Below are positions 4,306-31,904 of a stretch of 64,000 nt of DNA, in pieces. A program made the position numbers and the translations under genes. The stretch is taken from positions 19,220,001 to 19,284,000 of the forward strand of contig OX442314.1 of the NCBI GenBank assembly GCA_949358305.1, read 5' to 3'. This stretch comes from Strigamia acuminata. Taxonomy: Eukaryota. The notes below the pieces were generated by a model. That model had not been told where the DNA came from. It did no database searches and saw only the letters and a list, made by a program, of their open reading frames with translations. The stretch's first letter is position 1; each line of letters starts with the position of its first letter.

Positions 4306-7300
4306 ATGAAGCGAGAAAGGTTTCTGATTTACAAATATACTAGAAGGCATGTAAAGACATTTTTGCAAATGATACAAGAGAGTAAAACTTGCAATCAGCC
4401 TTTAGTAGGAGTGCGCTATATGAATAGCAGTAAACACGTTGCATTCAGAGCTATGTGGTTTGGTCTTATATTGTGCTGCCTCTCAGTTTGTGGTTATCAA
4501 ACGCATGAGCGTTTTACTCATTATTTTGATTTTCCAGTTAGAGTAGATGTTGATTTTAGTGAAAGTACAAATTTACTTCTACCATCTACAACCATCTGTT
4601 CCCAAGATACGGATTTATGGGTAGAATATGTCAAAGAAAATCCAAAGTTGCAAGAAGCAATGCAATTACATCAGCAAAATCTTCCTTGTGCGAATCAACT
4701 CTTCAAATTCTATCAATCTATAAATAAAAGCAACGTTGCAGATATTTGGAAAATGTTCAACACCTCTTCGGTTATAGAAGAAAGCAATCTGTGGAAGGTA
4801 ATGTTTTTATAGCATGAATAATTATTCTTATTTGTTAAAAATTAATTTAGGGAACCAAAAAGCTTCGCAATGTGAAATCAACGGCTGTCAATTTACCAAT
4901 GGGCATTTGTACAATGTTTACGTTCGGTAAGTATTTGGAAGAGAAATTATAGAACTTTATTTTTATCATAATAATTTTAATTACAAACAGACAATAAAAA
5001 TAATGATACAGCAGCAAATGAATTGCATGTGACAGTCAGAAAACCTAACGGAGGTTGTGATCGAAGTTCGGCAATAATGGTAAGAAATTGCTATGCACCT
5101 AGGTGCGGCACAAAAAATTATGAACACGTGAAATTTGTTTGTTTTCAATTGATCTCGTCATTTTATGGTTTTCTAACCTATTCCAATCGTTTTTTCACAT
5201 CAAAATATGCAAGAAACCTTGTTTTTTAACATGGAAACTTTTATTTTTCTCTCGTAATCAACTAAAATGAAAAAACACCCTGGTTCAAAAAATTATGAAC
5301 AGTTGGTTAACAATGATTTATGACAATGTAGGCAATGATTTAGTACCATTTAATACCAAGTAAAGTTACCCTACTTTAGTATGCCTATGTACACCCTGTC
5401 TAACATGGAATTAATTAGTGATTTTAATGTGGTGTTAACATGGTCTGCGACGCATTTTCCATTTGACTGTAAATAAAAATCAGTCTGCTCGAAAAATTGC
5501 TAATGAATTGAGTGTAAATGTATAAAATACCACATTTACTTGAGTTTTGAAGAAGAATGACAATAGTAAGTAGATGAAAAAGAAGGCAAAACCCTTCCTA
5601 AAAAAGAAGCGCAAAGAAGACCTTTGAAAAATACTCATCTTCTTTATTTAAATTATGCCAATAGTATTTATTGCCATCTGGGTCATTAAGGTTGAACTTT
5701 TTTCATCACAGAAAATTATTTTTTTCCATTCTGCATCCCAGGTTTAATATTTTTTTGCCCACTTTAATCTGTCTTCTTTGCGCTTCTTTTTTAGGAAGGG
5801 TTTTGCCTTCTTTTTCATCTACTTACTATTGTCATTCTTCTTCAAAACTCAAGTAAATGTGGTATTTTATACATTTACACTCAATTCATTAGCAATTTTT
5901 CGAGCAGACTGATTTTTATTTACAGTCAAATGGAAAATGCGTCGCAGACCATGTTAACACCACATTAAAATCACTAATTAATTCCATGTTAGACAGGGTG
6001 TACATAGGCATACTAAAGTAGGGTAACTTTACTTGGTATTAAATGGTACTAAATCATTGCCTACATTGTCATAAATCATTGTTAACCAACTGTTCATAAT
6101 TTTTTGAACCAGGGTGTTTTTTCATTTTAGTTGATTACGAGAGAAAAATAAAAGTTTCCATGTTAAAAAACAAGGTTTCTTGCTTATTTTGATGTGAAAA
6201 AACGATTGGAATAAGTTAGAAAACCATAAAATGACGAGATCATTTCAAAACAAACAAATTTCACGTGTTCATAATTTTTTGTGCTGCACCTTAATTGTGC
6301 TCCTGTGAAAATAAGTATATCTTAACCATTTACTGGCAGATGACATTTCAAGATAATAACTTTAAATCTGATCTGAAACAATTCTGGCACATTCCGACTA
6401 ATTTCCAAGTGGATGTTAACGTCCAATGGATTAAGGTGGCTGTAATAATATAATACATTCTTTTTAACTTTTGCACCATTGGCTATTGACCTGTCCACGT
6501 CACAAATAAATAATAGAAAAATAGTACGGAGTACTAAAAATGCAACGAGACATCTAATGTATTCTTCATGCGTTCGTTCCATCGATGAATTCGGATTCGG
6601 GGAGGGAGCGATTCACAAGTCAGCCATTAAGTTCAGCAAGATTTGCGTAAGAATTTATTTAGCATAAACTATATAGGTGGCACTAGGAATGCGCAGCGAC
6701 ACAAATTAACATAGAATTCAACATGGAGTTCAGACATTCCAGTATCTACCTCAAAAGGACGTTGATCGAAAAAAGCAACTACCGTATAATATAATAAGGA
6801 TGATAACGTAATAATGATTTTTATTAGTTAGTCGGGTCTGGGTACGGTTTCAATCACAGTTTCGAGCACAGCTTCACAGTCTCTGTTCTTGAACTTGAGG
6901 TCTTCTTATTGGTTAAGATTACACGATTCAGTTATTTGTATCCTCGAGCTTGTAATGCCAAACCAATGAAAATTTGTCGCAAGTTTTTGTCTCGTTGTAT
7001 ATAAACATTAGTCTTTTCTTATAAAATTCTTTATTCTTAATGCAGTACAATTTTTTACCAACAAACAATCGAAGTACAAGTTGCGTTTCTGTGCAAGAAT
7101 ATTTAGATTGCTCAATGTCCTGCCATCAGTGGTTGTACGATCAACTTAATAAGAAGTACAATTGGAGTATTAATTGCAAGTAAGTAACATTTTACTTTTA
7201 CACAATCATAAATACTTGTTGGGTAAGAAGAATCTGGGACTGTGCACAGTTTAATTAAGATAAAACTTATATTTCGTCTGAATATAGATACCCATTTGAG

Positions 7301-9261
7301 GATGAAGTCGATTTACCCTTGTGCAATACACCTTTACAGAAATTTGAATTTAGTACGTTAATGGCTTTACGTTTTGATCCATCTAGTTGTCACTGCGTGA
7401 GACATTGCGATAATCATGCATTTGATTTAAGCATGTATTATTATTTTAACAAAGATCCAGGAAGTAATATTAGAATTATAAAACACAAATACGTAACATC
7501 GTTTAACGAGATGTACGATTATGATGGTTTTACACTTCTGGGTGATGTTGGTGGAAACGTTGGCCTTTTATTGGGATTATCGGTTCTCTCGCTGTGCGAA
7601 ATATTGAATTGCATATTCTTACGGATTAAAACACAGAGAAAACTTAGAATTTTTAGAAGGTCCCTTCCAAATAAAAAAATGTGGTCTATATTTAAAAAAG
7701 AAATGATTAGAATTAAGATGACTCAAACCCATGCATCAATACCACTGACCCGATTACTGAAAGATAATCAGTTAAAAACTTTGAATATTTTGATGATCAG
7801 CATTTATTTCGCGCTTGCAATTCTATGTTCATCTTTTACTTGGGACAGAATGCGCTTTTACTGGAAATATCCCACTAAAAACATAGTAATAGTCGATAAG
7901 GATAAATGGGTTACATTTCCAACAATCACAATATGTGCAGCAAATACATACGTTGGGAATCTAAGAAAATTATATTATGAAAAAACTGGCAAAAGAACTT
8001 GCATGACATTAGATAACTACGTAGATATGGCTGGAATCTCAATTAAAGAGATGTGGGAAAAATCTGCAACAAGTTCTTTAATTTACCACCAACCACCATA
8101 TGCGCAAAGTTATCCTTTGGATTATGTAAATATAATTTTGATTCCATTATATTAGAAATTATAAACTTTTTGTTTAGGAGTTTTTTGACATTGAGAAATT
8201 TGATCGATATATGATGAATGCAACTACAACCTATTCGAATGTTTCGACCATTTACGGAAATTGTGTACAATATGACAGAGGTAGAAAAATAATATACGAA
8301 AATAAAAGATGAAATTATAAAACTCAACATATACGGTAATTTAGGTAAACAATATATGTTTGGAACTACAGCGACGTTTTCAAAAACAATATTGAATCGT
8401 ATTAATGGCTCTGATTGCGAACCTTTAGTGATATCTGTAAGTGAAAGTCTTCTATTCTACTTGTATCAATAAAAACATCGTTCCAAATTTACAAATGCAT
8501 TTGTTACTTAGATTTTTCTATCGCCTAAAAATTGTCCAATGCACTTTGGGTTGTTAAGTAGATTAGAAGTACCAGTGAATAGAGTTTCAATTATTACATT
8601 GAAATACAGAAAAGTAAATCGTGTAGTCTTCACAATAAAATAAATCGAAAATTCAGTAAACAACTTATTCAACTTATTCATTTTTTTAGCTGTACAGATT
8701 GAAGACTCCCAATTACAATTGCCAAGGAAGGAAAAAAGCTCTTAAATGTTTTACCGCATGTCGTGAAGAAATACTAATGAAAAAAATACCATGCAGGAAA
8801 GTTTGCATTTTTGTACTTAAACTATTGTATCATTGATTTGAGTAGTATCAGGTCTAATTTAAGTTCATTATTCTAACAGATTGCCCTTTATGCCTGAAAG
8901 TAATAAAACTGTATGCTGCACAAATTCAAGCTTTGCAATCATTGCAAAAAGAATGTACGACAAAATCTATTTAAAGAAAATGACAAATGAAGAATGTTAT
9001 TGTGTTTTACCTTGCACCGAAGATGTGTACGAATATCATGACTTCAGTGAGCCTCAAGAGGAAATGCACACTTTCATCAGTATATTTTTCGGCTCGACTC
9101 TCTTTGAAACTATACATGAAAAATACTGCTATGAGATAATCAAATGTATCTGCGATATCGGTTCCATTCTCTCAGTTGGTTTAGGTTTTTCGGTTTTAGT
9201 GTTTTTTGAAACACTGCAATATATCACTGAAAAAGTCTGCCGTTTGATTCATATAACTTAG
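4306..9261 (+). CDS. Two-domain (tandem-fused) DEG/ENaC family channel, copy A, ~836 aa, 11 exons
   Basis: Exons 4306-4797, 4851-4926, 4991-5079, 6340-6435, 7046-7179, 7288-8125, 8178-8280, 8345-8436, 8512-8613, 8690-8796 and 8880-9261 sum to 2511 nt in frame. Motifs: TM1 + LPSTTIC; Cys-rich thumb; TM2 YDGFTLLGDVGGNVGLLLGLSVLSLCE; second TM1 + FPTITIC; second TM2 CDIGSILSVGLGFSVLVFFE. The model needs a GA donor at 8797. Confidence 0.88.
5102..6290. mobile_element. Foldback/long-TIR non-autonomous element in intron 3 of copy A
   Basis: Near-perfect inverted arms of ~520 bp (5102-5621 and 5771-6290) around a ~150 bp spacer. The equivalent intron of copy B is only 54 nt. Confidence 0.8.
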
Positions 9262-12200
9262 CATGCTTTCAAAATGTAGCCTACACGACACTGTAATAAT
9301 ACATTATGTGTTAAAAGTACACATTCTATAACATGTGTACAGAATACTGTATTTGTAGACAATATTCTGTGTAACTGCAGTTTATGGTTTCAAATTTATA
9401 CCTCATATAATTGTAATGTACACTTTAAGTAAGTTGCAGTAAATCGAGCTTTACAAATATAGTTTAGTTTGTTGAATATAGATATTTGAGTATTTCTCTG
9501 CTGTTTAATATAAAAAATTAACTGTTGCAATTGCGCTTGCTAATTTTTCTGCAGCACAGGAATTATGAAATAAATTGCATTATCAGAAAAAATGTTGGAA
9601 ATAACAGCTTTGACTTGTCTCCATTTACAAACTTCAATCGAATAGTTCATAATAAATGTTTAATGAAAATAATAATAATAATCATTTCAAAGGAAATCGT
9701 AAGTGAAATCAACTTTGAAAGTGTTGGAGAAAGGAGAGAAAATGTTGAAAACTGATCATTGCGGGAAGATAAAAGTGTTGCAATAAAATAATATACCAGT
9801 GAGTAGATTGATAAGAATTGCTGAAGCTAAATAAATTATAAACTTTCAAGCACACGACTCAATCGTATCTGAATTACAATCGGTATTGGTTTTATTTGTG
9901 TAAAAAAGCATTCTAGGGCGGCAAGTCGATTATAGCGACGTCGACCCCCAAATAATTCAAAGTTCTATGTGCAAAGTATTTATTTGAACTAAACTGTAGG
10001 CAAAGCACAATAAATAACAAGACAAACAAATGTAACTTTTGTAATGTCAGGCTGCTTAAAATATACAAGACTAACACAGAAGCTGCAAATTAGAGTAGCT
10101 ATGGCACAAAAGATCGGTCCCCAAGTTTCCGTGTCAACTTGCGAGATATATTTTTATCAAGTAAGCAGAATCTAGCTGTTTAAGTATTAATGACATATTG
10201 TGCTGGAGCAGTGTGTATGAGAACTGATTGAAATGATAACTCAAGAAATGTGTTTTTCCATACTATCTTTACAATCAGTATCGATACAATGTAGTATTTG
10301 AAATAATATAAAAGCGTGAGTTTGTGCGACAAATAGCACATGCAGTTTAGTTGTCATTTCATCAACTTCATTTACAATGAATGGTCGAAAATTTTTAATC
10401 TACAAAAACACCAAGAGGCAAGTAAAGATCTTTCTTCGCATGGTAGAAAATAGGCAGAAATACACCCTACCTCTTGTAGGGGCATCTTACATTATGAGCA
10501 GTAAGCATGTTGTCTTTAGAGTCATGTGGTTTAGCCTCGTAGTATGTTGTCTCTCAGTCTGTGGATATCAAACGCGTGAGCGTTTTGCATATTATTTTAA
10601 TAATCCGATTAGAGTAGATGTTAATTTTGAAGAAAGTACTCATTTACTTCTGCCATCTACAACCATCTGTTCTCAAGACACGGATTTATGGGCACAAAAT
10701 GTCAAAGAAAATCCAAAGTTACAAAGAGCAATAAATTACAATTTCCAAGATGTTCCTTGTGCTAATCAACTGTTACAATTTTTCTACGAAATAAATAAAA
10801 CTAATGTTGCAGAAATTTGGAAAATGTTCAATACTTCTTCAGTTATAAAAGATAGCCATTTATGGGAGGTATGAAGTATATTGATATTGTAATCAAGTGT
10901 TCTCCACATACTAAAATTAATTTAATTAGGGAAAGAAACGACTTCGCAATGTGCATCAAACTGCTGTCAATTTACCAGTGGGTATTTGTACAATGTTTAC
11001 GTTTGGTAAGTATTTGGAAGAGGAATGAGTGAACTTTAATTTTATTCTGTTTGATGCTTTGCATTGATCAATTACAGGTAATGAAAGTCAAAATAAGAAA
11101 AAAAATGAATTGCATCTGACAGTCAGAAAACCTGATGGCGGTTGTAACAGAAGTTCAGCAATAATGGTACGCATTTAATTGTGTTTCGGTCTGGAGTATA
11201 TATCTTGGCATTTACTGCAGATGACGTTTCAAGAAAACAATTTTAAATCTGATCTGAAACAATTCTGGCACATTCCAACTAATTTTCGAGTGGATGTTCG
11301 TGTAAAATGGATTAAGGTAACAATATTGTGCACACGTACAGTTTCAGTGTTGAATGCGCAAAAATCATTTTATTCTCTAAAATTAATAATTATTTGACAA
11401 AACAGAATGACCACAAAGAATTTTTTTTACAAAAACGTAAAAAATCAAGACTACCGGTACCGTATTTCATTTCATGCTGATTATTATTAGTGTTCCATAA
11501 TAAATGGAAAATATACAGTACGGTACTTATATGTTTACAACATTTGTAAACAACATTTGTGTGATATCCACTGTGTTGTGTGGAATAGATGTTTGTAATC
11601 ACTTCGGGCCTGAGTCACAAGTGAAACTAGTGGAAAAAGAACTACGCTACAAAGTTGGCTACGTGTTTATTTACAACAAAGGTGGGTTGCCCGGTAGATA
11701 CCCGGCAACCTTACAATGATCGCTTAGCGGAACGATTTGCGGATGCAACACTCTTCCCCCCTCACAAGATGAAGCCTGTGAACCAGAAGATAGTGTTGGC
11801 CATGAGGAGGGTGCATCCAACAAGCAACAGAGTGGCGACCTATAGTCGTCAATGCGCAGTAGACAGCAAACGCCAAAGGGTGGCCGCGAGCAAGCATCCA
11901 AAGGAGTTGGCAACAAATGAGCACCTGATGGTCGGTGACGAGATGGCGCCAGAAAAACGGCGATAATTGAGCACCAGACGATGGCAAATGGCGAGCGCCA
12001 AAAGGTAGCAAAAAGCGGCTGATGAACATCGGAGGCAAGCACTTGGGCAGCGAAAAACATGGCTCTTCAAAGCAGAATGTGACCATTTCTTTTCACCTAT
12101 AAGGTTGACAATTAAGCACATGAATTAAATAAATAGTCAAATGAATACTGTTAGGGCTAAACAAAGAAAGAAGAGAAAGGCGCGAGAACAACCAACGGAA

Positions 12201-14258
12201 TTGTTCGCGCGCAGAAACAATAGGTTGAGAAAATGGCGGCAACGAATTTGTGTAAATACACAAACGGGTGCAAAATCGTGATATTTCGCGGGTTGATTCG
12301 ACTGTGGAGCCGGAATCGTGGCCAGCTATATAGCTAGGCCGAGGTGGAAAAACGAGGTGTAAACTTCGAGACGAAACGGAAATCCTCCGTTGAAAACTCA
12401 CGAATCCAACTGGCGTAGTTCGCACTGTCGAATCGGTCTTCGGGTCCGCTTCATCTCGGTAAATTACCGTCGGCATTGGCGCAGCAATGGTCTTTGGGCT
12501 TCGTCGGGGGCGGCGGGCGTTTACTCCGCAGCCTTTCTTTGAGGAGGTCCGGGAAGGATTCGTCTGACAAGTGAGTAGTTGTTCAGACAAATCAAGTTGA
12601 AACTTGGCCAACTCTTTTATCACCGGTCAAAACAATGCAAATGTAGCAGAGCTGTGACAGCGTGGTGAACGTGGTGAGACGTATACTCAAAACCAACATA
12701 ACTTTGACCTATTTCACTGGTGTAGTGGCACAAAAAAGTAGCCCAAAACACCAGAATTGTAATCGAACTCCAGACATTGTGATCGATTACCAACATTGTC
12801 AAAGGTGATGCTTTGACACAGAACTACTTTTCCACGTAGTATAACACAGTACACAGTTAGGCGAAAACCAGCTGAAATAGGTCAAAGTTATGTTGGTTTT
12901 GAGTATAGGCAAAGAGTGAGTAATAATCCTAATAAACAAATTTATTACTTAAAATTTGGCCGGAAAATCGGCCAAGTGCGCATGCGTGGCGTGCACCTGG
13001 CACACTTCATGCCTAGCTACGGTGCAAATTAGGAGCTAGCCATAGCAACCCCCCAATTTGGCAGTTTGGTTTCCATGGCAGTCGTAACCTTCTGTCTAAC
13101 AGCCGAAAGCATTTGGCATTTGTGCAAATAAAATGAGTATTTTATTCGCACAAACAAGAAAATTCACGTTATTATTTTATCAAACAATTCATTAAATTCA
13201 TCAAAATAAATTGATTCCTCAAATTACCCATTTTTTTTAGCATTTCCAAATAATTAGCAGGGACAGGAAAATGATTTTGTCACGGGCACGTCTACCCGCC
13301 TATTTTTAATTTAGAATAACCCAATCTTATTTCTTATAATATTTTCTTGTTTCTCTCACTTGTGATGATTCATCTCTATTGCTCATCTTCATTTAATGAA
13401 TGCGCAATCTGGATGATGCGCATATCATTATTTTTACAATCGAACTCTTATTTTCACCTTTCCACCCCCTTTTCTTAATTGATCTGACCAGTCACATGAC
13501 TGAGTTTTCCTCTTTCCAATCATCCTAAGTTTAATCACTTCTTCTTATGCTCTCTATCGGATAACACCCATTTCCCTTAGTAACATTTAGATTTAGTCTG
13601 CTATTATTTGCGCCTTCAACAAGCGCTCCTACATCTAACCCTATTGCGCTATTTTCAATGCCGCCATCTTTTATATTATCACTGCCCGATGATATCCCCT
13701 TTCCACTTTAGGTTAATATCACCGTGCTTCCATTCTTTTACGACTACAAACATCCGCCGTAAGCAAGGAACTGTCCAATATAAATTATGTTAGTCAAACG
13801 CGAGTATTAGGTTTCCTGAGTTTCTGGATGTCCTCATTTGAAGGAAACAAGGTTTAGGGAAATCTACGAACTTTGCCCATTACTATTGCGCGAATTAGTT
13901 TTTGCGCGATATTGTTAGGAATTAATTATACCAACAGAATTAATCGTGACAATTTATTATACGATTGTTTAGATTAAACAAGTTAAATCATTATTTCATT
14001 TTACTCAAATTTTCACAAATAAATAGGGACATTTAGAATCACAACAAGTATTAAATTATATATTTTAATTTAACATAGTACAATTTTGTTTCAACACCTG
14101 GCCAAGATTGCGTTACGATGCAGGGATATTTAGATTGCTCAATGAAGTGTCTTAGCCGTGTTTATGATTTGTTCACAACTAAAAAAATATTTATTTGCAA
14201 GTATGTTATATTTTACATGTTACAAAAATTATCTGATTCCTTATCCGAAACCATTGTA

Positions 14259-16144
14259 CAATAAATTCTCTGATGCATCAGTCTCTATCATGATGCAGAG
14301 CAAGGGGTTTAGATAAATGTAATGATGTAAAATTCAATGCCGGTGTTATTATTACAACACATTATAATTGACAGAGACACAAAACTACAAAACTGTAGTT
14401 ACCGGTATGTTGCTAAAAGAACGAATGTGGCATGCAAGGTGAGTTAGAAGTAAGAACTGATTTATTCAGATAATAGGAGTGGGGGGTATACTGTAAAGTC
14501 CTATGGACGTTTAATGCAGTCCTAACGTTCACGTGTTAAGCCTGGTTCACACTTGCGGATATGTTGCGGAATTGTTGCATCCGCGGTTTGCTACAATGAG
14601 CTGTGATTGGCTGCGGAAAAAAAATTGCGCGGAAAACTAGAAAATATTTCTAGTTTTCCGCGCGATTTTTTTCCGCAGCCAATCACAGCCCATTTGCAGC
14701 AAACCCCGGATGCAACGTATCCGCGGCGTATCCGCAAGTGTGAACCAGGCTTAACGGACGTTACGGTCTGGCGGGAATGTTTGTCATTTTAACAAAAACA
14801 AATAACATACCGGTATGTTGCAACACATGAACGTAATTTGAATGCAATGCAAATAGCTACAGTGACGAAACATGTTCCATTTGATCAGTGCTGTACTGGC
14901 CTGACGGGATACCGGAAATTTCCCGGTGGGCCCGTGACCACAGATTAGGGGAAAACACAGATGCAACACTTGCTTCAAAATCCTTTGTTCAGCGCATGCT
15001 GTGAAGGTCAAGTTGCACAGCAGCGCGCCAAGCGCTAATCACGGTACTGCGCACAGAATAACATTGCCGTATGTGAGAATTGTTTGATTTTTTTACATGA
15101 CAACATGTAATCTTTAATCATTGAAAATTGAATAATAAAATTTTACATTTTATTAATTGAAAATGGAAAAATGTAAGCACTACTGCATTCAAACAGTACT
15201 GTTCAATGTTTTTGATTTAAATTAAATATACTGTATATTAATCATTATTATTAGTTGTGGGCAGTGTTGTTTAATAAACGTTTCTGGTGTAGTTTTCTCC
15301 ACTCTTTCTGTTGGTGTATAGTTTTAGACGATCTGAGCCTTCGTTCTTGAGATATTTGCGTTAAAACATAGCGAGTTGGGACAGAAATTGATGAAATATG
15401 CAAATATCTCAAGAACAAAAGCTTGGACCGTCTAAATCTATACACCAACAGAAAGAGCGGAAAAAACTACACCAGAAACGTTTATTAAACAACACTGCCC
15501 ACAACTAATAATAATGTTTAATATATACGGTATTTAATTTAAATTAAAAGCATTGAACAGTACTGTTTGAATGCAGTAGTGCTTATATTTTTCAATTTTC
15601 AATTAATAAAATGTAAAATTCTATTATTCAATTTTCAATGATTAAAGATTACCTGTTGTCATGTAAAAAAATCAAACAATTCCCATTGCTTTTTGACTAA
15701 AAGCCAAATAAATCCAACAATTCTCATGTATGGCAATGTTATTCTACGCGCAGTACCGTTATTACCGCTGCGACGCTGCGAGCGCACAGCTCAAGGACGT
15801 ATCAACGTTGATTTCCTGAAGTGTCGCATCTGTGTTTTCCTCTAATCTGTGCCCGTGACGTTGTGAAATGTTTTCATTTCACATGGTACCGAAATATTAT
15901 TGCTTTATTTCAGTTGTGAGCAATAAGCTGGACAACCGCCATGTTTAATGCATGCGCAGGTGTGACGCGCAGTTTGAATTTGACATCAAGATGTCGGGTG
16001 CTAACTATAGTTTTGTCTATGGCCGGGATTGTCCAAGATTTTGAACTTTAAGTCACAATTTAACAAACATGGCAACCCGACCATGTTTCTGCGCAGGTAA
16101 AAATTGCTTTTTGAAAATATATACATACATCAGAGAATTTATTG
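14259..16144. mobile_element. TA-flanked TIR element containing nested inverted repeats (intron 5 of copy B)
   Basis: Ends read TA|caataaattctctgatg and catcagagaatttattg|TA. An internal imperfect palindrome spans ~14937-15852. Confidence 0.6.
14540..14750. mobile_element. Palindromic MITE flanked by TTAA
   Basis: ttaa-gcctggttcacacttgcggata ... tatccgcaagtgtgaaccaggc-ttaa; forms a hairpin over its full length. Confidence 0.75.
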
Positions 16145-16333
16145 TATTTGGGAGTTATCTGAGAAAATAGAATCAAGTTTTTTTAGGTATTTAATTAGAT
16201 ACTTTTATTTTATCTCATAGATATCCATTTAATGACGAACTAAATTTACCTTATTGCAATACACTGTATGACTATCTGACTCATACGATAGTTGCATTAC
16301 GATTCGATCCAATCTTAGAATGTTCTTGCACTA

Positions 16334-17664
16334 CTAGTCAAATCCATATATCCTCATACTCCTGTGAAAGTGATAGAAATAAAATATTTGGATTGACCTC
16401 AAATTAAATCTAGTTTGAATTAAACCTTGAAATTTTAAGCAGTTATATAGATACATCTGAAGAAAGTATAAGCAAAATCTCATGTCAATCGGACTTGAAT
16501 TAATAAAACTAGAAGCATATTTCAAAGTAACATTTGATTCATAAATCCTCATACCAGCTTGCACATGGTACAAAAATCTTCATACTCTGTATTTTAAGGT
16601 AAGAATATTTACATTCACAAAATAGTTTTGTATAAATATGATTTTGCTAGTAGGAATAGCATAAAATATTTCAATTATAGATCATTTGTCAGTAAAATGG
16701 CACCAGGAAAAAGAGATTACAGCACTAAAATATGAGTGGAATAGCAAAGTTGCACATTGATCAGAACTAAATGGCATTTGTGCCCTGGTAACATGTGCTA
16801 GGCTAGTAGCAGGTAAAATGTCAGATACAATAGAGCTTTCAGGCACATCTTGTACTATTTTTATGTGTCTTACAATTACACAGCAATCAGAGCACCACGA
16901 GCAGAGAATTCACCATTTGATCATCATATGAAAAACAATGTTCTAGATGTGTTAATGTACTTTGTCTCATTTTTGCATGAAAATAACTCAATTTAGATGT
17001 AGGAGAAGCAATTGGCATGACTGGAAGTTGATGATGATGTGCAAACAGGTGAAAAATTGAGTGGCGGTTCTGTGGCACATGTGGGTGGAATTTTCAGGCC
17101 TTGATAAACCAGATATCAGGTTTTTTCGGTGGTCATATGAACTCGCTAACCAGTAGCAGTATGATAAAAGATGAAATCAAGAACATACTGCTGTTCTTAA
17201 AGGGAATACTATAAGTTTTAAAAGGAAAATATCCTGGTCAATGTGCAACTTGTTCAATACAGTCAGGTTTCAGCGCTCACAACAGCCTTTCCTGGAGATA
17301 TTTTACTGACAAATTATCTATAATTAAAAGGTTTTATGCTATTCTTACTCGCAAGATCATATTTACATAAAGCTATTTTGTGAATGTAAATATTCTTACA
17401 TTAAAATATAGAGTATGAAGATTTTAGTACCATGTGCAAGCTGGTATGAGGATATATGAATAAAATGTTATTTTGAAATATGCTTCCATTTTTTTTATTT
17501 CAAGCCAGATTGCCATGAAATTTTGTTCATACTTTCTTTAGATCTACCTATTTAACTGCTTAAAATTTCAAGGTTTAATTACAACTAGATTTAATTTGAG
17601 GTCAATCCAAATATTTTACTTCTATCACTTTCACAGCAGTATGAGGATATATGGATTTGACTAG
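16334..17664. mobile_element. Non-autonomous Tc1/mariner-like TIR element inserted in a coding exon
   Basis: TA target duplication (16332-16333 and 17665-17666). Imperfect TIRs of ~400 bp start ctagtcaaatccatatatcctcatac and end gtatgaggatatatggatttgactag. Confidence 0.85.
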
Positions 17665-20297
17665 TAGACATTGCAATGACTATGTATTTGATTTGAGCAT
17701 GTATTATTATTACAACAAAAATTCTGAAACTAATATTAGAATTATTAAAGATGAATACATGACATCATTTAATGAGATATACGATTACGATGGCTTTACA
17801 CTGTTGGGTGATGTTGGTGGAAACATCGGATTTTTATTGGGATTATCAATTCTCTCTCTGTGTGAAATACTGAATTGCATATTTGTTTGGATTAGAGCAA
17901 AAAGAACTGATAAAATTACTTTCATGAAGTCCTCTATGTCAAAAAAAATTTGGGCCATACTACGAAAAGAAATGATTAAAAAGAAAATTACTCAAAATCC
18001 TGCATCAACACCACTTACAAGGTTACTGAAACTTAATAAGTCAAAAACTCTAAATTATTTGATGGTTGGCGTCTATTTAATACTTGCAATCCTTTGCACA
18101 TATTTTACATGGGACAGAATGTGTTTTTACATGAACTATCCTACTAAAACTGTAGTTATAGTAGATAAAGATAAGATGATTACATTTCCATCTATCACAA
18201 TATGTGCAGCAAATAATTATGTTGAGCACCTAAGAAAATTATACGTTGACAAGACTGGCAATAAAACTTGTATGACATTAGATAATTATGTGGATATATC
18301 TGGATTGTCAGTGGATGATATGTGGAAAAATTCTACAACAAGTGATGTAGTTATGAATCAACTAAGAAATGGAAGTTATTTTGTGTCTTATGTAAATGTA
18401 ATATTAAATGCATTTATTTTTTGTTAGTTTAATGTATTTATTTGCAGGATTTTTTTTATCTGGCAAACTACGATAAAATTGTGAATGTAATCTATTCTAA
18501 TATTTCAACAATATACGGAGAATGTGTACATTATGAAATCGGTGGGTGAAAATATATAATAGAAATTTACAAGTTGAATTATTTATGTTCTAAACTTTAG
18601 GTAAACAATATATGTTTGGAACCACAACAGTTTTTTCAAAAACAATAATTAATCCTGCTCCTTTTTCTTCTTGCGAACCTTCTGTAACATATGTAGGTAC
18701 AATGTTTTAGCTATCACTTTTAAGAATCAGTTTTTGGCAAAAAATATATTTTGATTGATTTTTGCTTCTTTCTTAAAATCTGTTCGCATTAACATAACGC
18801 TTTTATAATGTCATTGTACTAAACGAACGATTCTCTATAACTTTAGTCTTGCTTTGCTAATTAAAAAGTTATCCTAGAACTTAAAAAAACATTTTTATGA
18901 CCTGGATTATTTGTTATTTGATGGAGATAGTGTTACTTCAAACATGTTTCGTCTTTGTTCCTAAAATAGATTTTTCTATCACCTGAAAATTATCCGATAG
19001 AATTGGGATTGCTAAATAGAATAGAAGTACCAGTGAGACGAGTGTCAATTATATCATTAAAATACAGAAAGGTAAATAGTGTATTCCTCCAAATAATATA
19101 AAGTAAATAACTTACCATATTCTAATTTTAGCTCTACAGATTGAACACTCCGAATTATAAATGCCACGAGAGAGAAATTGCTGTTAATTGTTTTACTGCA
19201 TGTCGTGAGAAATTGCTAACTAAAAAAATACCTTGCAGGAAAGTTACTTTTTCCCGCTTTATCTACTGTTATAACTTATTTTTGAAATCTAATTTAATCT
19301 TATTATTCTTACAGATTGCCCTTCATGCCTAAAAGTAATAAAATTGTACCCTGTATAAATACAACTTCTGCAACTACTGCAAAAAGAATGTACGACGAAA
19401 TCTATTTAAAGAAATTGTCAGAGAAAGAATGCAATTGCGTATTGCCTTGTATTGAAGATGTTTACGAATACCACGACTTCAGTGAGCCTCGACAGGAAAA
19501 GCACACTTTTATCAAAATATTTTTTGCTTCAACTCTCTTTGAAATCTTACATGAGAAATACTGCTATGAGATAATTAAATGCATCTGCGACATCGGTTCC
19601 ATTCTCTCAGTTGGTCTCGGCTTTTCTGTTTTAGTGTTTTTTGAAACACTGCAATATATTATCCAGCGTCTAGCATTGCTTAAAGCGGTTGCCGTTTGAT
19701 CAAGTTACCTATAAATGAGACTACCGTATTGTATTATTAATATGCATTTTATATTATTCCGCGCAGATGCCATTCAGAATCACAATAATATGTCTAAAAG
19801 CAATTAAATCAACTAGAACTTCAAGTATAATCCCTAGTAAACTCAACTAATCTCTCAGAAACTGCTAGGTAGATGGAAATTTCCAATCAGAATTTAGAAC
19901 ATTGATTGTTTAGACAAGCATTAAAATTTTAACTTTATTATCTTTATTAGTTCAGGGCCAAATCACTTTTATGAGCGCACAATTTATGATAATAATTATA
20001 CAATTCTGTATTTGCACATCACATTTGTTAGTTGAAATAAAATGACGAGTTGTAGTAAATACAATAAAATGCATTGTGGAATTCAAACATTTTAGTAGAA
20101 ATTCAGTCACCCACTCAACACTTGAAAAAAAATTTTTTTTTTTTATTATTATTATTTGGAATTTATTTGTTAAATACCAAAGCTTCAAATTGGCGCCGGG
20201 GACCGTTTAAAAGCCGGGGTCCCAAAAATCAACGATTTGTTCTTTGACATGTTTTAAACATCTCAAAGAACGAATACCAGTAGCTTGCCTTTTTCGA

Positions 20298-21811: not shown

Positions 21812-24800
21812 ATGAGAAACGTTAGAAGAAAACTCTTAGTAAAGGCAATTCGATTGGAATTGGAGTCAAAAGGGCTTCAAATTCCAATTGTGGGATTATC
21901 GTTTGTGCTGAAAAATCAAAAATTAGAGTGGCTAAGAATAATATGGCTCGTTATTTTATTGTCATGCATTATAACTTGCGGTTATCAAGCCTACGATCGT
22001 ATACTGTATTACTGCTCATATCCGATTAGAGTTGACGTTAAGTACAGAAGCGGTGACAATTATCTTCTCCCCTCTGTAACTGTCTGTGCTCAAGATACAC
22101 CATCGTGGATTGAATATATTGATGAGAATCCGGTGGTTGCTAGTGAGATTCAACGGTTTCAAGATCTTTATCCATGTGCCAATCAAATTTTGGTTTTTTA
22201 TAATTTCATTAATAAAACATCAGTTGATGAGATTTGGAAAATGTTCAACACAAGTTCAATTCTTGACGGCTACAATTTAACGAAGGTAAGAATCTATCAT
22301 TCATGTTTTCCCAAAGTAAGTTTAAAAGTCAGCTAACTACATGATATTTGATCGCATTCAGGGCAAAACTAATATGCCAAATATTCAAATAGACTATGTA
22401 AACTTACCATTGGGCAGCTGTGCAAAATTTGCATATGGTTTGTATTGTCCCCCTCCCTCTCAACATACTTTTCTTGAAATTAATTCTACATTTAATTCTT
22501 ATTAGATGATACAAATGATGCAATTGCTGATACATTGGTTTTTAAAATTAAAAAACCCAAAGGTGGTTGTAACAGAACTTCTAGATTAATGGTAGTTGTA
22601 TTCAAATTTGGGTCCCATTTATTGCTCCATTAAATTTCCTTGGATTTCCACTGAAAAAAAACTAATTCTCCCACTTACTGAAATTTCCACTAACGCTCCT
22701 TTTTTGTTCCACCAAATTTATACACTAAAAAAAAACTAAATCTTCCACTAAAATCAAATTAGGGGAGAAAAAACTAATATTACCACTACTACTTATATAT
22801 ATATATATATTTTTTGTGCTGCAGCTGTGCGAACGTTTGGCTAACGTCGAGGACGACCAACCCTTCCCCCGCATGGTCTACGAGCGCCCCAACAGTCGCC
22901 CGCTCCCGCAACCGAGTCCTCGCCAAGGCCCGAGTCCTAGTCCCCAGTTCTAGTCACGTGTCGGGACCTAGTCCCAACTAGACCTCGGGGCCCCTCGCCG
23001 TTGCCATAGTCGTCCATCTCCCGCTCGTAGACAATGCGGGGGAGGGTTGGTCGTACTGCTCAATATACAAGAATAAGTTCCCTCACCCCACTTCTGGTGA
23101 CAAAATTGTACGACGGCGGCCACATCTCGCCGGGCGAAGGCTGGTTCGTCCGGGGCGCATTCGTCGCGTGTCTCCCCGTTCGTCGACTCCCGCCGGTCCT
23201 AGTCACGTGTCGGGACCCAGTCCCAACAAGACCCCGGGGCCCCTCGCCGGCCGCAACATCTTCATGGACGACTTCGACTATGGCCACGCGAATGTCCACG
23301 ACGACACACCACCCTCGTTTGTTGACTCCTGCCGCTCCTCGATGAGCCGGCGGACTCCCCAATTGTTGGAAGCTACGCAAGGCGCTGCAGCAATTGGGGA
23401 GTCTAGCGACCACGCCGTGGATTATCGTGGACATCCGCGTGGCCAATGAAGATGGACCCGATGTGCATGCCGAAGGCGATGTTGCAGCCGGCGAGAGGCC
23501 CCGAGGTCTTTTTGCGATGAGGGAACTTGTTCTTGTCCTATTATTGAGCAGTACCTAAGTAGAACGTGCCTTTGGGCGAGAAAAGGAAGCAAGGTAGACC
23601 ATCGAAAGCCAGGAAGGCCTTCCTTTTGTAATAAAAAAATTTAGTAGAAATAGTGGATGTACTTAGTTTTTTATAGTGGGGAAAGTCAATAGTGGGAAAT
23701 TTAGTTTTTTTTAAGTGTATAAATTTAGTGGAACCAAAAAGGAGCGTTAGTGGAAATTTCAGTAAGTGGGAGAATTAGTTTTTTTTTAGTGGAAATCCAA
23801 GGAATTTTAGTGGAGCAATAATATATACCCTTCAAATTTCGTATACTACAGTAGTAGTGTACGGATGTATTCAAGCATATTTTTATCTCACTGTTTTTAA
23901 TAGCTTACATTTCAAAAAAACCAATTAAAATCAAATCTGAAACAATTTTGGCATATCCCAACAAAGTCGAGAACTGAAGTGACTGTTGGATTGATAGAAG
24001 TAAACATTTTTTTTTGGTTTTAAACTTAATTTCCCTATTTGTAAATGTTGCGCCTAAATTTACTCATTAGTATAACTTCGTGAAAACTTATTTGAAAACG
24101 TGTGTTTCCATCGATGAATATGACAAGTGTGCCAGAGATTGTTTTCTTAAAGAATACGAAACTTGGAAGGAATACTTCACGTGCACGTAAATCTACAGTC
24201 ATACTTCCCATACGTCATAAGAAATATACAGTTGTTCTTTTATTCTTGTTACTGTAGATATCCATTTGATTCAGAATATTTAAATGTAACATCATGCATT
24301 CCCAATAGAGTTTTATACGTGCTACACTCACTCATACCGGTGCGCCTTAATCCAGTTGCTGAATGCAATTGTTCAGAACCATGCCACGAATACGCGTTTG
24401 GTATAGACATCAATTATTTCGATGATCAAAAAGCAGACACTAAAGTTAGAATTAAAAAAGGGACTTTTGTGACTACGTTCGACGAGTTATACAGTTATGA
24501 TATAGTCACACTGCTATGTGATATTGGCGGAAACTTAGGACTTTTGTTGGGCCTTTCAATACTTTCTATCTGCGAAGTAGTACACATATCGCTTAAGATA
24601 TTTTTTATGAAAAGGGAAATGAAAGCAATCAGAACCAAATCCAGCATTATTCGGAAGAAAAAAATTGAAGAAATTTGTAAACAGCAAATGATGAAAAATA
24701 AGGTTCCACCATTCGAAACGCCAATAAGCGAAAAGATATTGAAAAATAAGAAATCCTTCGCCAGTGTATTCTGCATTACAATATATTTGACCTCACTCGC

Positions 24801-27056
24801 TTTTTGTTCCTACATTACGGTAAATAGGACGTTATATTTCCTCAGTCATCCTACAAAAACCATAGTACAAGTCTACAGAAATCAAACTATTGAATTTCCA
24901 AGTATCACAATATGTGCAGATAATAATTACATTAAAAATTTAAGATATTTGTATTACATAATAACCGGAAATCGCTTGTGTTTGCCTTTGAGTCAATACT
25001 TGGACATATCTGGAACAACAGTACATAATTTATGGAATTACTCCGCTACAAAAGAAATCATCTTTTTCCAGTATCGTAATGGCATTTACAATGATGCTTT
25101 GGTACTAAATCATCTATTTGTTGAATTTAAAGTGTGTTTATTGAAATTGCATATTATTTATTCCAAAGAAATTTTTTATTACCGCCCTTATGAACTCCAG
25201 CATTGATCAAGCAGTTCATTCTGACGTTCCAACAGTCTATGGAAATTGCGCAGAATACAATATAGGTTTGTTACGTAACAATTGATCCTTTCATGACAAC
25301 TTATGCACCTTGAATTATAGATAAATCGCAAGAATTGTTTGGAACTACAACCGTTCTTGAAAGCATGATTAATGATGTCAATGATTCTTGTTGCGACCAA
25401 CCCGTGGCAACGGTAAGCTCACGAAAAGACATCCATTAAAAACTGTAGTTACACCGTAGACCAGCGGTCGGCAACTGGCGGCCCGCGGTCCGGATACGGA
25501 CCGCGGAAGGTCGAAACTTGGACCGCGGTGACGTTTTAGCGACGTTTTTCCCTCGGTTTCTTTGGTTTTTCGGTGTTTTTCTTCTTGTTTTTTTTTTTTT
25601 TTTCATGTTTTTTAGGTTTTATTGGTATTTTTTGTGTTGTGTGTGTTTATTGGGGGATTTATTTGGTTTTTAAGTATTTTCTTAGGTTTTTAGTAAGGTT
25701 TTTAAGTGTTTTTTTTCTGGACCTCGATAAAAATTTTCAATAGTATCCGGACCCTACTTAAAATTACTTGCCGACCCCTGCCGTAGACAAAAAAGATTTC
25801 TCTGAGTTACAGCTGGTTGTTAGTTTGACCACAAGCAAGCATGTAGAACCATTAAAATTTACTGACATCAGTATTTGCCCAGTCTATTTGTTTAATACTG
25901 TAGTCCAGGCAAGACAAGTTGATCATATTTTCCAGAATCAGGACTAATGTTATCGAATCTTAATAGCTTTTTATGCCACCTGGTAGATATAGGGTACTCA
26001 AAACATATAACTGAAGAGAAGTTTTTATGTACAAGCATCGTAACTAAACAGTATACAGTCGAAACTCTTTATAATGAATCGGGATATAACGAATTATCGC
26101 TATAACGAATTGTTAAAAATGACTTGGTTGGCCAGCCATAGCACCCCATGTTAAAAATTTTCTATATAACAAATTTCAATATAACAAATTATTCGTTATA
26201 ACAAACAAATTTTATGTACACTATAATACCCATAAGCCCTTGTTATAACGAATTTTCAAAACTGATCGCAGCATCTTATACCCATATACCCATATCCCTT
26301 GCGATTCGTTATAAAGAGTTTCGACTGTACAAGTATATCATATTTCTTAGGTTTTTCTAACACAGAGAGATGTTCCTTCGTATTTTGAATTACAAACAAG
26401 GCTCGAAATTCCAAGAAATAAAATAGCTCTTATCGCTTTAAAATTTCGAAAAGTAATTATAATACGATTAACAAATTTTAAAATTGAAGTAATGTAAATA
26501 TTAAATCAAGGTAATTAGAGTAAATAGCCAAGGCCACCAATGCTTGGATAGGGATACTGCAATCAATTGTCTTATTAAATGTCATTCAAGATTGCTTTTC
26601 AAACAAATACCATGCAGGAAAGTTCAATTTTAACTTATTATTAGATAATATAAAATTATTTTTATTTATTTCGGTTACAGATTGCCCTTTATGCCTGAAC
26701 ATGATAAAGTAAAATTTTGTACAACTTCAAGTTCTGCTGAATTAGCTAGAACAATTTATGAGTACGTTTATTTAAGGAATTATCCGGATAAAAGTTGCAA
26801 TTGTTTACCACCCTGTACTGAATTAATATACGAGTACAGCCACTTCATTGAACCTCACGAGGAAAAATTTACTTTTATTCATATTTTCTTTTCAAAAACA
26901 CTATTTGAAACGATTCAAGAAATTTATTCGTATACATTCATTAAATTTATCTGTGATGTTGGGGGACTTTTATCCATTGGATTAGGGTTTACTGTATTAA
27001 CAATGTTTGATACTCTTCAAACTTTAATAAGTTTTACGTGTTCTTTCAAACAATAA
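21812..27056 (+). CDS. Two-domain DEG/ENaC copy C, apparently intact
   Basis: Exons 21812-22285, 22362-22437, 22506-22591, 23904-23999, 24071-24186, 24258-25101, 25169-25265, 25321-25412, 26351-26452, 26511-26617 and 26681-27056. Motifs LPSVTVC, LLCDIGGNLGLLLGLS, FPSITIC and CDVGGLLSIGLGFT. GA donor at 26618. Confidence 0.87.
22610..23830. mobile_element. Non-autonomous Mutator (MULE)-like element with a GC-rich interior, intron 3 of copy C
   Basis: 9-bp TSD TTCAAATTT (22601-22609 and 23831-23839); TIRs of ~130 bp starting GGG and ending CCC. Confidence 0.8.
25462..25780. mobile_element. hAT-like MITE
   Basis: 8-bp TSD CCGTAGAC; termini cagcggtcggcaa and ttgccgacccctg. Confidence 0.8.
26056..26327. 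mobile_element. Tc1/pogo (Tigger-like) MITE
   Basis: TA|cagtcgaaactctttataa ... ttataaagagtttcgactg|TA. Confidence 0.8.
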
Positions 27057-29614: not shown

Positions 29615-31904
29615 CAATTATACAACAGCGGAAATAAATATTGCTAATTTAGGAATTGTCTAATTTCTCCATTTGAACTCAGAACTTTAAAGAAAAGAAA
29701 AAACCACCACCAGGTTACACCCTTACTGCGGGCTACGGACAGTCCAAATCCTCAGTCTAATTTCTTCTGCCATTTTGGATTCCACGGAAAATTTTTGCTG
29801 CTTCTTTTTGGTTAGTTTTCGAATTAATTTTGCTTTTTGACGGACGATATTATCGTCGCTAACACGTCCCAACGTGGCCGCCCGCCAACCGCCAAGCAGA
29901 AGGCGGCTAGGACTGCCGTTGTCTTTGAAACGACCGACCCGAGCCAGTACGGCGTTGCTGTGGAAGAGTCACGTCAGTCGGACGTTGCCGATACCGTCGC
30001 TTCAGCAGACTGGAGCAGAGGATGTTTTTGGCTGGTTTGTCTTTTTCGGTTAAGTCCTCTTTCTGCCCCGCGGAACGCGCCTTTGGGACGCGAGGGGTGA
30101 GGCCCATGTAATGCCCGTAACATGTCTCGCTCTGTTGCTGGGGTTTTGGTTCAGGTTCACCGAACCGAGGTTTTGCCCGCTGCAAAGCGGAGGTTTTGCC
30201 CGCTGCAAAGCGGAGGTTTTGCCCGCTGCAAAGCGGAGGTTTTGCCCGCTAACAAGCGGAGGTTTTGCCCGCTAAAAAGCGGAGGTTTTGCCCGCTAAAA
30301 AGCGGAGGTTTTGCCCGCTAAAAAGCGGAGGTTTTGCCCGCTAAAAAGCGGAGGTTTTGCCCGCTAAAAAGCGGAGGTTTTGCCCACTAAAAAGCGGAGG
30401 TTTGCCCGCTACAAAGCGGAGGTTTTGCCCGCTACAAAGCGGAGGTTTTGCCCGCTAAAAAGCGGAGGTTTTGCCCGCTAAAAAGCGGAGGTTTTGCCCG
30501 CTAAAAAGCGGAGGTTTTGCCCGCTAAAAAGCGGAGGTTTTGCCCGCTAAAAAGCGGAGGTTTTGCCCGCTAAAAAGCGGAGGTTTTGCCCGCTAAAAAG
30601 CGGAGGTTTTGCCCGCTAAAAGCGGAGGTTTGCCCGCTACAAAGCGGAGGTTTTGCCCGCTACAAAGCGGAGGTTTTGCCCGCTACAAAGCGGAGGTTTT
30701 GCCCGCTAAAAGCGGAGGTTTTGCCCGCTACAAAGCGGAGGCTTTGCCCACTCAAAACAGAAGTTTTGCACGCTAGAAAAGCGGAAGTTTTGTCCGCTAC
30801 AAATCCGGAGTTTTGCCCTGTTTTTCGGATTTTTCTCTGGACAGCGCACATGGGTTGTGGCTGCAAATGTTGCTGCGCAGCTAAGGAAGTTTTTTCCGCT
30901 TCAAGGCGGACGCCGAGTTATTTTTCCCACCAAGCAGAGGTCGGTCTTGTCAGTGCACATGGGCTTCAACTGGTCAACTGATGGAGTGCAAATAGTTTTT
31001 GCAATTTTCGGCGATTCATTTGTTTTTTAGCAAATGAATTTTGTGCATTTAAAGCTTTCTCACACCTCAAATATCAGAATAGTCTTTCTTGCAATATCAG
31101 TTGAAACTATTGGTTAATGTGAGATTCTATAAGCTTTACGTGACTATTTACAAAATAAACCTCACTTTTTTCTAAGACTTAGGTTCCCATCTGGTTATTC
31201 GCCGGATCCTGAGGGGCGTGTCTCTTTCTAGACCAACTGTCCCGAGATACTCTAATATCTGGCACATAGGCCCGATTTTAACGCATCTCAAACGTCTCTT
31301 TTCCGTCCCTAATCTTTCGAGACTGTCGAGAAATCAGCGTCTGGCTACTCTTTTGGCTCTTGCATTGGCAGACAGAGCGGGTAACCTTTGACTACTCTCA
31401 GCAGACATTTGGTTTTTCGATTATTTTTGCATGGTCCCTCTGTGCGGTTCTCGTAAATCCGCGTATCTAGCGCCTCTTTGCAGCGCGTCCTTTCACGACG
31501 AGGAGTTATGTCCGGTGGTTGCTTTGCGTCGGTTCCTAAACTTTACCGCTTCTTTGAAGGGTAGTTCAAAACAATTTTTTTTTCTCTCTGGCTTGCCACC
31601 GTCTGGCCCGGTTTTCTCTACGACCATCGCGAGGTGGATTAAGGGCGTCCTCTCTGACGCGGGGGTAGATACCTCCGTTTTCTCGGCCCATTCAACCAGA
31701 GCTGCAGCCACGTCGTTCGCGGCTAGTAGGGGAGTCTTTAGAGTGCATTATCAAAGCCGCCGATTGGTCAACTGCCGATCGAATCCGCTTTGGAAGAATT
31801 TGCTTCTGTAGTATTAAGGGGCTACGAACGTTCCTAAATTAGCAATATTTATTTCCCTTAGTATAATCTAGATTTTGCTTCACTATACTAGCAAAATCCC
31901 AATT
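29615..31904 (+). mobile_element. Internally deleted DIRS1-like (tyrosine recombinase) retrotransposon remnant
   Basis: Bounded by CAATT at both ends. Recombinase remnant 31431-31811 (LCPV...TIARWIK...FSAHSTRAAATS) resembles the ORF at 61188. The left-end sequence ggaaataaatattgctaatttaggaa is inverted at ~31830-31856. Confidence 0.75.
30167..30820 (+). repeat. 23-bp minisatellite, roughly 27 copies, inside the DIRS remnant
   Basis: Unit aagcggaggttttgcccgct(aaa/aca/gca) repeated head to tail with no spacers, decaying toward the right end. Confidence 0.9.

What the first reader, a model, noticed from the sequence alone, without database searches (positions are those of the whole stretch)
7288..8125. 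Natural concatemer: two DEG/ENaC subunits encoded as one polypeptide in every copy that retains the junction exon
Seen: one stop-free exon runs from a DEG/ENaC TM2 (GDVGGNVGLLLGLS) through a basic ~50-aa linker into a second TM1 and FPTITIC motif. The same junction exon is present in B (17667-18391), C (24258-25101), F (45923-46748) and G (63099-63924), so this is not two neighbouring genes merged by a gene model. Established: ENaC, ASIC and degenerin channels are trimers of 2-TM subunits. Inference: a 4-TM two-subunit chain cannot fill a trimer by itself. It would need a single-domain partner (2+1), three chains building two linked pores, or one domain left outside the pore. I do not know of a characterised family with this architecture, but novelty has not been checked by search.
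Basis: partly seen in the sequence, partly recalled or inferred. Interest (0 to 1): 0.92.

Follow-up and report, generated by a model that had tools for sequence, protein, structure and literature searches.

The report
Two-subunit single-chain DEG/ENaC channel family
A cluster of centipede-like genes each joins two complete sodium-channel (DEG/ENaC) subunits in one reading frame, so the likely single chain would fill two of the three seats of a normally three-part channel, an arrangement we found in no paper searched and that recurs as three-subunit chains in shrimps and crabs.

Summary
Exon 7288-8125 runs without a stop from a DEG/ENaC TM2 through a basic ~50-residue linker into a second TM1. 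Gene A splices to 836 aa with four TM helices, and both halves show the same intron phases (0,1,0,0,2): two tandem six-exon genes fused. The linker is open in 5 of 5 copies (4.6% of non-coding windows are), with dN/dS 0.22-0.60; read contigs bridge it in A, B and C. Twenty uncharacterised Strigamia maritima (centipede) proteins carry the same junction. First and second halves form separate clades, pointing to one old fusion followed by expansion. A predicted homologue model gives two whole subunits (Z 19 to centipede PDPNaC1 and BRTNaC1). Decapods have a separate three-domain family. Correction: copy B's exon starts at 16221 and holds a polymorphic transposon. No RNA or functional data exist here; one S. 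maritima orthologue is annotated as a lone second half. Best reading: both halves sit side by side in one trimer completed by a separate subunit, most likely single-domain. Ten paper searches found no description.

The parts
4306..9261 (+). Gene A, intact two-domain DEG/ENaC, 11 exons, 836 aa (exons 4306-4797, 4851-4926, 4991-5079, 6340-6435, 7046-7179, 7288-8125, 8178-8280, 8345-8436, 8512-8613, 8690-8796, 8880-9261)
   Evidence: Stop-free spliced model; Pfam ASC on first, junction and last exons
4306..7179 (+). Gene A exons 1-5: TM1 and most of the ectodomain of domain 1; intron phases 0,1,0,0,2
7288..8125 (+). Junction exon: end of domain 1 (thumb, TM2 with GLS), basic cytoplasmic linker (residues about 409-459), TM1 and post-TM1 FP motif of domain 2
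8178..9261 (+). Gene A exons 7-11: ectodomain and TM2 (GFS) of domain 2, stop at 9259-9261; phases after exon 6: 0,1,0,0,2
8797..8879 (+). Predicted GA-AG intron (donor CAG|GAAAGT), same place in A, B, C, F and (GAAAGG) D
   Evidence: needed to keep the frame; X1 contig agrees with the window here; no RNA test
10377..19699 (+). Gene B, 67-69% identical to A per domain; 830 aa once the insert is set aside; junction exon 16221-18391
16334..17664 (.). Terminal-inverted-repeat element with TA duplication inside B's junction exon; absent from a contig of run X2
21812..27056 (+). Gene C, intact, 821 aa; junction exon 24258-25101; 56% identical to S. maritima T1IPM9
31893..42150 (+). Copy D, pseudogene: exons 1-5 present, junction exon missing, exons 7-8 damaged, Bel/Pao element in exon 10
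42904..43296 (+). Copy E, exon-1 remnant with frameshift and stops
44254..48210 (+). Gene F, intact, about 826 aa; junction exon 45923-46748
50465..63924 (+). Gene G, exons 1-6 stop-free, junction exon 63099-63924, cut off by the window end; two retroelements in introns 1 and 3

Best explanation
These genes encode two complete DEG/ENaC subunits in one reading frame, and the predicted four-TM chain likely supplies two neighbouring positions of a trimeric cation channel whose third position is likely filled by a separate chain, most probably a single-domain relative (2+1). Shown: one exon carries TM2-linker-TM1; both halves keep TM1, 12-14 ectodomain cysteines, TM2 and a GxS/T motif; both halves and the linker evolve under purifying selection. 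Inferred: two tandem six-exon genes fused once in a centipede lineage and the fused unit was then duplicated many times. The short cytoplasmic linker would fix the order of two unlike subunits and give an asymmetric pore: at the site matching PDPNaC1 Gly378, domain 1 has Gly and domain 2 Ser or Ala in A, B, C and F. By kinship with PDPNaC1 and BRTNaC1 and from the expansion pattern, a sensory role (protons, heat or chemicals) is likely but untested. My rough odds: made as one chain 0.88; both halves in one trimer, given that, 0.75.
For: Stop-free 11-exon models for A, C, F with phases 0,1,0,0,2 twice. Linker open 5 of 5 against 4.6% background, at only 40-46% nucleotide identity between subfamilies; dN/dS 0.22-0.60 in six pairs; domains 0.24-0.52 except the young F-G pair at 0.75-0.77. 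32 of 150 HMM hits carry a TM2-to-TM1 junction; 25 of the 32 were looked up and 20 are S. maritima proteins, those aligned mostly 18-27% identical to T1JD34. One is a single 241-aa ORF on a 1154-bp ENA contig. First domains form one clade (14 rows, SH-aLRT 96) and second domains another (10 rows, 96) (FastTree agrees). AlphaFold2 model of homologue T1JD34: pLDDT 71, pTM 0.65; residues 51-382 match PDPNaC1 9JF7 (Z 19.1, rmsd 3.7, 317 aligned) and 423-774 match BRTNaC1 8YMR (Z 19.2, rmsd 4.5, 322 aligned). A single-domain model (T1IGW0) lies in the same wider clade. Engineered head-to-tail ASIC chains give working channels (PMC4529235 and PMC10329638, passages). Decapod chains with exactly three ASC domains, several as single ORFs on 4.2-5.3-kb Logan contigs, fit the idea that linked domains fill one pore.
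Against: No transcript or protein evidence for the window's genes. S. maritima T1JE81, the closest relative of the A/B second half (51-55% identity), is annotated as a separate 247-aa protein starting at the Met that aligns with a Met kept in all five linkers. No single-domain partner gene lies in the window, and the single-domain models are automatic and may be incomplete. The structure is of a homologue about 22-25% identical to the window's exons, from a 28-row alignment, and I could not view its coordinates; how the halves pack was not seen. The HG re-entrant motif is absent from both halves, although PDPNaC1 also lacks it and conducts (PMC12714832, passage). Engineered concatemers also shed shorter products (PMC4529235), so cleavage is possible. 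The tree is a quick search with long branches. B is interrupted in this haplotype and D and E are dead.
Confidence: 0.58

Rival explanations
1. No single-domain partner is used: the chains assemble among themselves, either two chains with one domain left outside the pore, or three chains building two linked trimeric pores and possibly larger clusters.
For: The array holds only two-domain genes. Two-domain models make up most of the S. maritima hits looked up. An engineered ASIC1a dimer gives current on its own (PMC4529235, passage).
Against: A routinely excluded domain should decay, yet both halves are about equally conserved (dN/dS 0.30-0.41 in four older pairs). The linker is short for spanning two pores, since TM2 runs on as a helix to residue 411 and TM1 starts at 423 in the homologue model. 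The query favoured fused forms, so the share of single-domain genes is not known.
Confidence: 0.2
2. The fused frame is a precursor: the basic linker is cut in the cytoplasm, or domain 2 is also made from the linker Met, and free subunits assemble as ordinary heterotrimers.
For: A Met at the same linker position in 5 of 5 copies; T1JE81 is annotated from it. Linkers are rich in K and R. Engineered concatemers yield monomer-size bands.
Against: Purifying selection and an open frame extend through the whole linker. An R-x-K/R-R site occurs in only 1 of 5 models. The Met is not evident in several more distant family members. No strong donor site is shared by all five junction exons.
Confidence: 0.11
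3. Two chains form a four-subunit pore (dimer of dimers), as two-repeat members of tetrameric channel families do.
For: Two domains divide evenly into four. One paper argued for tetrameric ASIC1a (PMC4529235, passages). Second-domain TM2 differs at pore-lining glycines.
Against: The nearest solved relatives are trimers (three chains per entry; PMC12714832 states homotrimer). Both halves fold like trimer subunits. Decapod chains have three domains.
Confidence: 0.06
4. The open junction is an artefact or chance read-through between two separate genes.
For: No RNA seen; fused ASC models in other animals (leech T1FFM7, midge A0A9J6BSR8) may be annotation mergers.
Against: Contigs bridge the junction; 5 of 5 open against 4.6%; dN/dS under 1; conserved in 20 proteins of another assembly; there is no room for a terminator and promoter in about 150 bases.
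Confidence: 0.05

Closest known systems
PDPNaC1 (PDB 9JF7) and BRTNaC1 (PDB 8YMR), antennal DEG/ENaCs of the centipede Scolopendra
   Same: Best solved matches by sequence (E 2.5e-17) and by fold for each half (Z 19); compact ectodomain; no canonical HG motif in PDPNaC1.
   Different: They are 421-431-aa two-TM subunits, PDPNaC1 a homotrimer, with nine and seven exons (passages); only 23-34% local identity.
Uncharacterised Strigamia maritima proteins T1IPM9, T1JD34, T1ITL7, T1J963, T1JBK6 and others
   Same: Same two-domain build and the same domain-1 and domain-2 clades; T1IPM9 is 52-56% identical to C and F.
   Different: Database models only, unnamed and often partial; T1IPM9 lacks the stretch around the GA-AG intron; the S. 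maritima genome paper's main text and long supplement do not mention ENaCs.
Heterotrimeric ENaC (alpha, beta, gamma), ASIC2a/3 and Pickpocket heteromers
   Same: Unlike subunits with different TM2 residues share one pore in fixed ratio (ASIC2a/3 1:2, PMC10329638 title and passages; ENaC recalled).
   Different: Each subunit is its own gene and chain.
Engineered ASIC concatemers
   Same: Head-to-tail subunits joined by a cytoplasmic linker that form working channels.
   Different: Laboratory constructs of like subunits with whole tails plus a spacer; here the fusion is natural, old and joins halves only 20-23% identical.
Natural multi-repeat channels: two-pore channels, K2P, Nav/Cav, sperm CNGK (recalled, no call)
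   Same: Gene duplication and fusion place several pore subunits in one chain.
   Different: Those pores are fourfold, so two or four repeats fit; two repeats do not divide into a trimer.

Membership tests
DEG/ENaC (PF00858) | ASC domain above the Pfam cut-off | tested here: met
   13 of 13 exon frames tested score 31.7-65.8 bits against a cut-off of 23.6; the spliced window protein itself could not be sent to Pfam; homologues give 3-5 ASC stretches
DEG/ENaC (PF00858) | Each subunit: TM1, large Cys-rich ectodomain, TM2 | tested here: met
   Met twice per chain: four hydrophobic segments, 12-14 Cys per ectodomain
DEG/ENaC (PF00858) | One subunit (two TM helices) per polypeptide | tested here: not met
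   Two subunits and four TM helices in one frame; this is the new feature
DEG/ENaC (PF00858) | GxS motif in TM2 | tested here: met
   Domain 1 GLS in 5 of 5; domain 2 GFS in A and B, GFT in C and F
DEG/ENaC (PF00858) | Pre-TM1 HG motif | tested here: not met
   VG in domain 1, absent in domain 2; PDPNaC1 lacks it too, and only 43.4% of insect PPKs have it (passages)
DEG/ENaC (PF00858) | Subunit fold (palm, thumb, finger, TM) | tested here: met
   Tested on homologue T1JD34, not on the window protein: both halves Z 19 to centipede channels
DEG/ENaC (PF00858) | Trimeric assembly and cation current | not testable with these tools
Strigamia two-domain clade (family I, defined here) | Domain 1 and domain 2 each group with the same-position domains of S. 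maritima proteins | tested here: met
   SH-aLRT 96 for each clade; 0.855 and 0.936 in FastTree
Decapod three-domain clade | Domains fall within the decapod clade; three domains per chain | tested here: not met
   Decapod domains form their own clade (99); gene A stops after two domains; no AU test was run

The most novel reading that the evidence does not exclude
Arthropods evolved single-chain multi-subunit DEG/ENaCs at least three times (an old two-domain family and a younger repeat family in geophilomorph centipedes, a three-domain one-chain channel in decapods), and the two-domain chains assemble without any monomer, as two linked pores from three chains or as the first four-subunit DEG/ENaC.
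Probability: 0.2. Interest if true: 0.95.

Novelty: new variant of a known kind. Interest (0 to 1): 0.82.

Why it matters
DEG/ENaC channels are described as trimers of separate two-TM subunits (PMC9822975, passage). A natural two-subunit chain does not divide into three, so it must recruit a partner, link pores or change the symmetry; each outcome would be new for the family and can be tested by expression and subunit counting. The family is large in S. maritima and was not covered in that genome paper's text, so it is a candidate unrecognised sensory receptor family of a blind soil centipede. The decapod three-domain proteins would be natural one-chain trimers, useful for studying pore asymmetry with fixed subunit order.

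Tried and rejected
No whole genome was held, so partner genes elsewhere could not be sought. No RNA holder listed; this is no evidence on expression. Word-seeded homologue searches were weak: the A junction exon against longer proteins gave none of 1395 candidates, and alignment A2 returned only its own first row, so the range beyond Strigamia is untested. ESM Atlas gave only ASC clusters of 378-412 aa. The model of the reduced three-unit lobster protein (P0163) had pTM 0.43 and did not show whether it closes a pore. An extra exon at about 6828-6978 was tried and dropped: it broke the frame and has no counterpart. GT and GC donors were looked for at the last intron and none kept the frame. The careful IQ-TREE run did not finish; the quick tree on 56 rows is used; the FastTree used 115 of 131 domains after dropping eight redundant or doubtful proteins. 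P0046 was flagged with a collapsed linker and P0057 looks unrelated; neither was looked up. Paper searches found no natural multi-domain DEG/ENaC; searches used a term that matched nothing and one search returned noise, so they count little. Earlier scan findings: none.
Full report
Observation. The frame 7259-8155 is stop-free and carries two Pfam ASC stretches. With splice sites checked by hand and by a spliced aligner, gene A has 11 exons and 836 codons without a stop. Exon 6 (7288-8125) holds the end of one subunit with TM2, a linker of 51 residues, and TM1 with the FP motif of a second subunit. The introns before it have phases 0,1,0,0,2 and those from it onward 0,1,0,0,2, at matching places in the two halves. 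This is the pattern expected if the last exon of one six-exon gene merged with the first exon of its tandem copy. The halves are only 20-23% identical, so the event is old.

The array. Seven copies lie head to tail. A, C (821 aa) and F (about 826 aa) are intact; G is open as far as the window reaches; B is intact apart from a 1.33-kb inverted-repeat element in the junction exon; D has lost that exon and carries a Bel/Pao element; E is a remnant. A contig of run X2 joins 16331 to 17665, so the insert is polymorphic. Contigs of X1 and X2 bridge the junction in A, B and C. They skip no introns, belong to one study and may include the source of the window.

More than chance. The linker is open in 5 of 5 copies; 157 of 3384 non-coding windows of the same length are; the other two frames have 3-8 stops each. 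Linkers of the two subfamilies are 40-46% identical in DNA, and dN/dS over the linker is 0.22-0.60 in six pairs, on only about 50 codons each. The domains give 0.24-0.52, except the young pair F-G at 0.75-0.77, which may mean relaxed or diversifying selection.

Relatives. A profile of the five junction exons, run against 1.84 billion representatives, returned 1169 hits at E 0.001; of the best 150, 32 carry TM2 followed by TM1. I looked up 25 of the 32: 20 are uncharacterised Strigamia maritima proteins, and one each comes from a shrimp, a midge, a leech, an ENA contig and Logan contigs. T1IPM9 is 52-56% identical to C and F, so the window likely comes from a geophilomorph centipede (inference). 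In the tree, first domains of the window and of eight S. maritima-type proteins form one clade (14 rows, SH-aLRT 96) and second domains another (10 rows, 96); a second group (T1IZL2, T1IU28, T1ITG7) has close repeats and some models with parts of a third domain, which suggests a separate, younger fusion. P0011 in these clades was not looked up. Decapod proteins of 1245-1392 aa hold three ASC domains, form their own clade (99), and several are single ORFs on Logan contigs of 4.2-5.3 kb, the size of a transcript, though the molecule type is not given. A related set of 1014-1049 aa (Homarus, Cherax, Petrolisthes) has three TM pairs with a shrunken middle ectodomain.

Structure. The spliced window protein could not be folded, so I folded homologue T1JD34 (791 aa, 28 rows): pLDDT 71, pTM 0.65. 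Each half matches a whole centipede subunit: 51-382 to PDPNaC1, Z 19.1, and 423-774 to BRTNaC1, Z 19.2 (Foldseek agrees). A pTM above 0.5 for two equal halves hints that their relative place is partly fixed; this is weak, since I could not see the coordinates. TM2 continues as a helix to residue 411 and TM1 begins at 423.

Mechanism. Both halves keep TM2, a GxS/T motif and 12-14 ectodomain cysteines and are about equally conserved, so both likely line a pore. At the position of PDPNaC1 Gly378, where a change to Ser alters selectivity (PMC12714832, passages), domain 1 has Gly and domain 2 Ser or Ala in A, B, C and F; in two of six database homologues the pattern is reversed. Engineered ASIC dimers and trimers form working channels (PMC4529235, PMC10329638; passages). 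I therefore favour one chain giving two adjacent subunits, with a third from another chain, most simply a single-domain relative such as T1IGW0. Against this: no partner lies in the window; no RNA or protein data exist; T1JE81 is annotated as a lone second half starting at a Met that all five linkers keep; and cleavage cannot be excluded. Self-assembly, cleavage and a four-subunit pore are the rivals. Function as a sensory channel is inferred from kinship with antennal PDPNaC1 and BRTNaC1 (passages) and from the birth-and-death array.

Novelty. Ten searches of an open-licence library (listings seen) found no natural multi-domain DEG/ENaC; three of them were poorly formed or noisy. Term look-ups showed no mention of fused or tandem domains in PMC8438182, PMC5203786, PMC9822975, PMC10148893, PMC10507113, PMC7067487 and PMC7510291 (passages only); PMC8438182 notes 46 insect PPKs (8%) with three to five predicted TM segments, with no discussion of fusions in the passages seen. 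The S. maritima genome paper has no hit for ENaC, pickpocket, degenerin or amiloride in its main text or its long text supplement; most of its other 56 supplementary files were not searched, and bioRxiv supplements and subscription journals were out of reach. The architecture is visible in UniProt models, so it is unremarked more than unseen. Natural multi-repeat channels in fourfold families are recalled, not checked.

Verdict. Real, conserved and part of a large family; a DEG/ENaC by domain and fold but not by chain architecture. New variant of a known kind, interest 0.82. The assembly state is the open question.

Noticed in passing
window 8797-8879, 19239-19314, 26618-26680, 41715-41774, 47767-47834: The last intron of every copy that has it appears to start GA instead of GT (CAG|GAAAGT in four, GAAAGG in D); the S. 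maritima model T1IPM9 lacks sequence around the same place. A conserved non-canonical GA-AG intron, untested by RNA.
   Followed up: partly
P0074, P0154-P0159, P0033, P0100: Family of 1245-1392-aa proteins with three ASC domains in one chain (named members from Halocaridina and Petrolisthes; others on unnamed 4-5-kb Logan contigs): candidate one-chain trimeric channels.
   Followed up: partly
P0160-P0165: Decapod proteins of 1014-1049 aa (Homarus, Cherax, Petrolisthes) with three TM pairs whose middle subunit has a much reduced ectodomain.
   Followed up: partly
P0003, P0005, P0010, P0028: A second S. maritima group with close tandem ASC repeats and partial third domains, apart from the window's family; possibly a younger fusion or a longer polyprotein.
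   Followed up: partly
P0072, P0027: A 1460-aa three-ASC model in Polypedilum vanderplanki and a 944-aa two-ASC model in Helobdella; may be real fusions or merged gene models.
   Followed up: no
window 16334-17664: Non-coding element with long terminal inverted repeats and TA duplication, polymorphic between the window and a contig of run X2.
   Followed up: yes
window about 35675-41615: Bel/Pao LTR retrotransposon (Pao peptidase, RT, integrase) inserted in exon 10 of copy D.
   Followed up: partly
window 51636-56174: Gypsy-type element (gag, protease, RT, RNase H, integrase) with long open frames in intron 1 of gene G.
   Followed up: partly
window 57640-62273 and 31392-31811: DIRS-like element (RT, Dam-like methyltransferase, tyrosine recombinase) in intron 3 of G, and a similar-looking recombinase fragment before copy D (no Pfam hit for the fragment).
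   Followed up: partly
window 5051-6290: Intron 3 of gene A holds a long inverted (foldback) repeat with very high contig depth in both runs.
   Followed up: no
window 27849-28499, minus strand: SWIM zinc-finger frame, likely a Mutator-type transposase remnant.
   Followed up: no
window 146-847 (minus) and 2644-3189 (plus): Two similar-looking frames without a credible Pfam match, facing apart, upstream of gene A.
   Followed up: no
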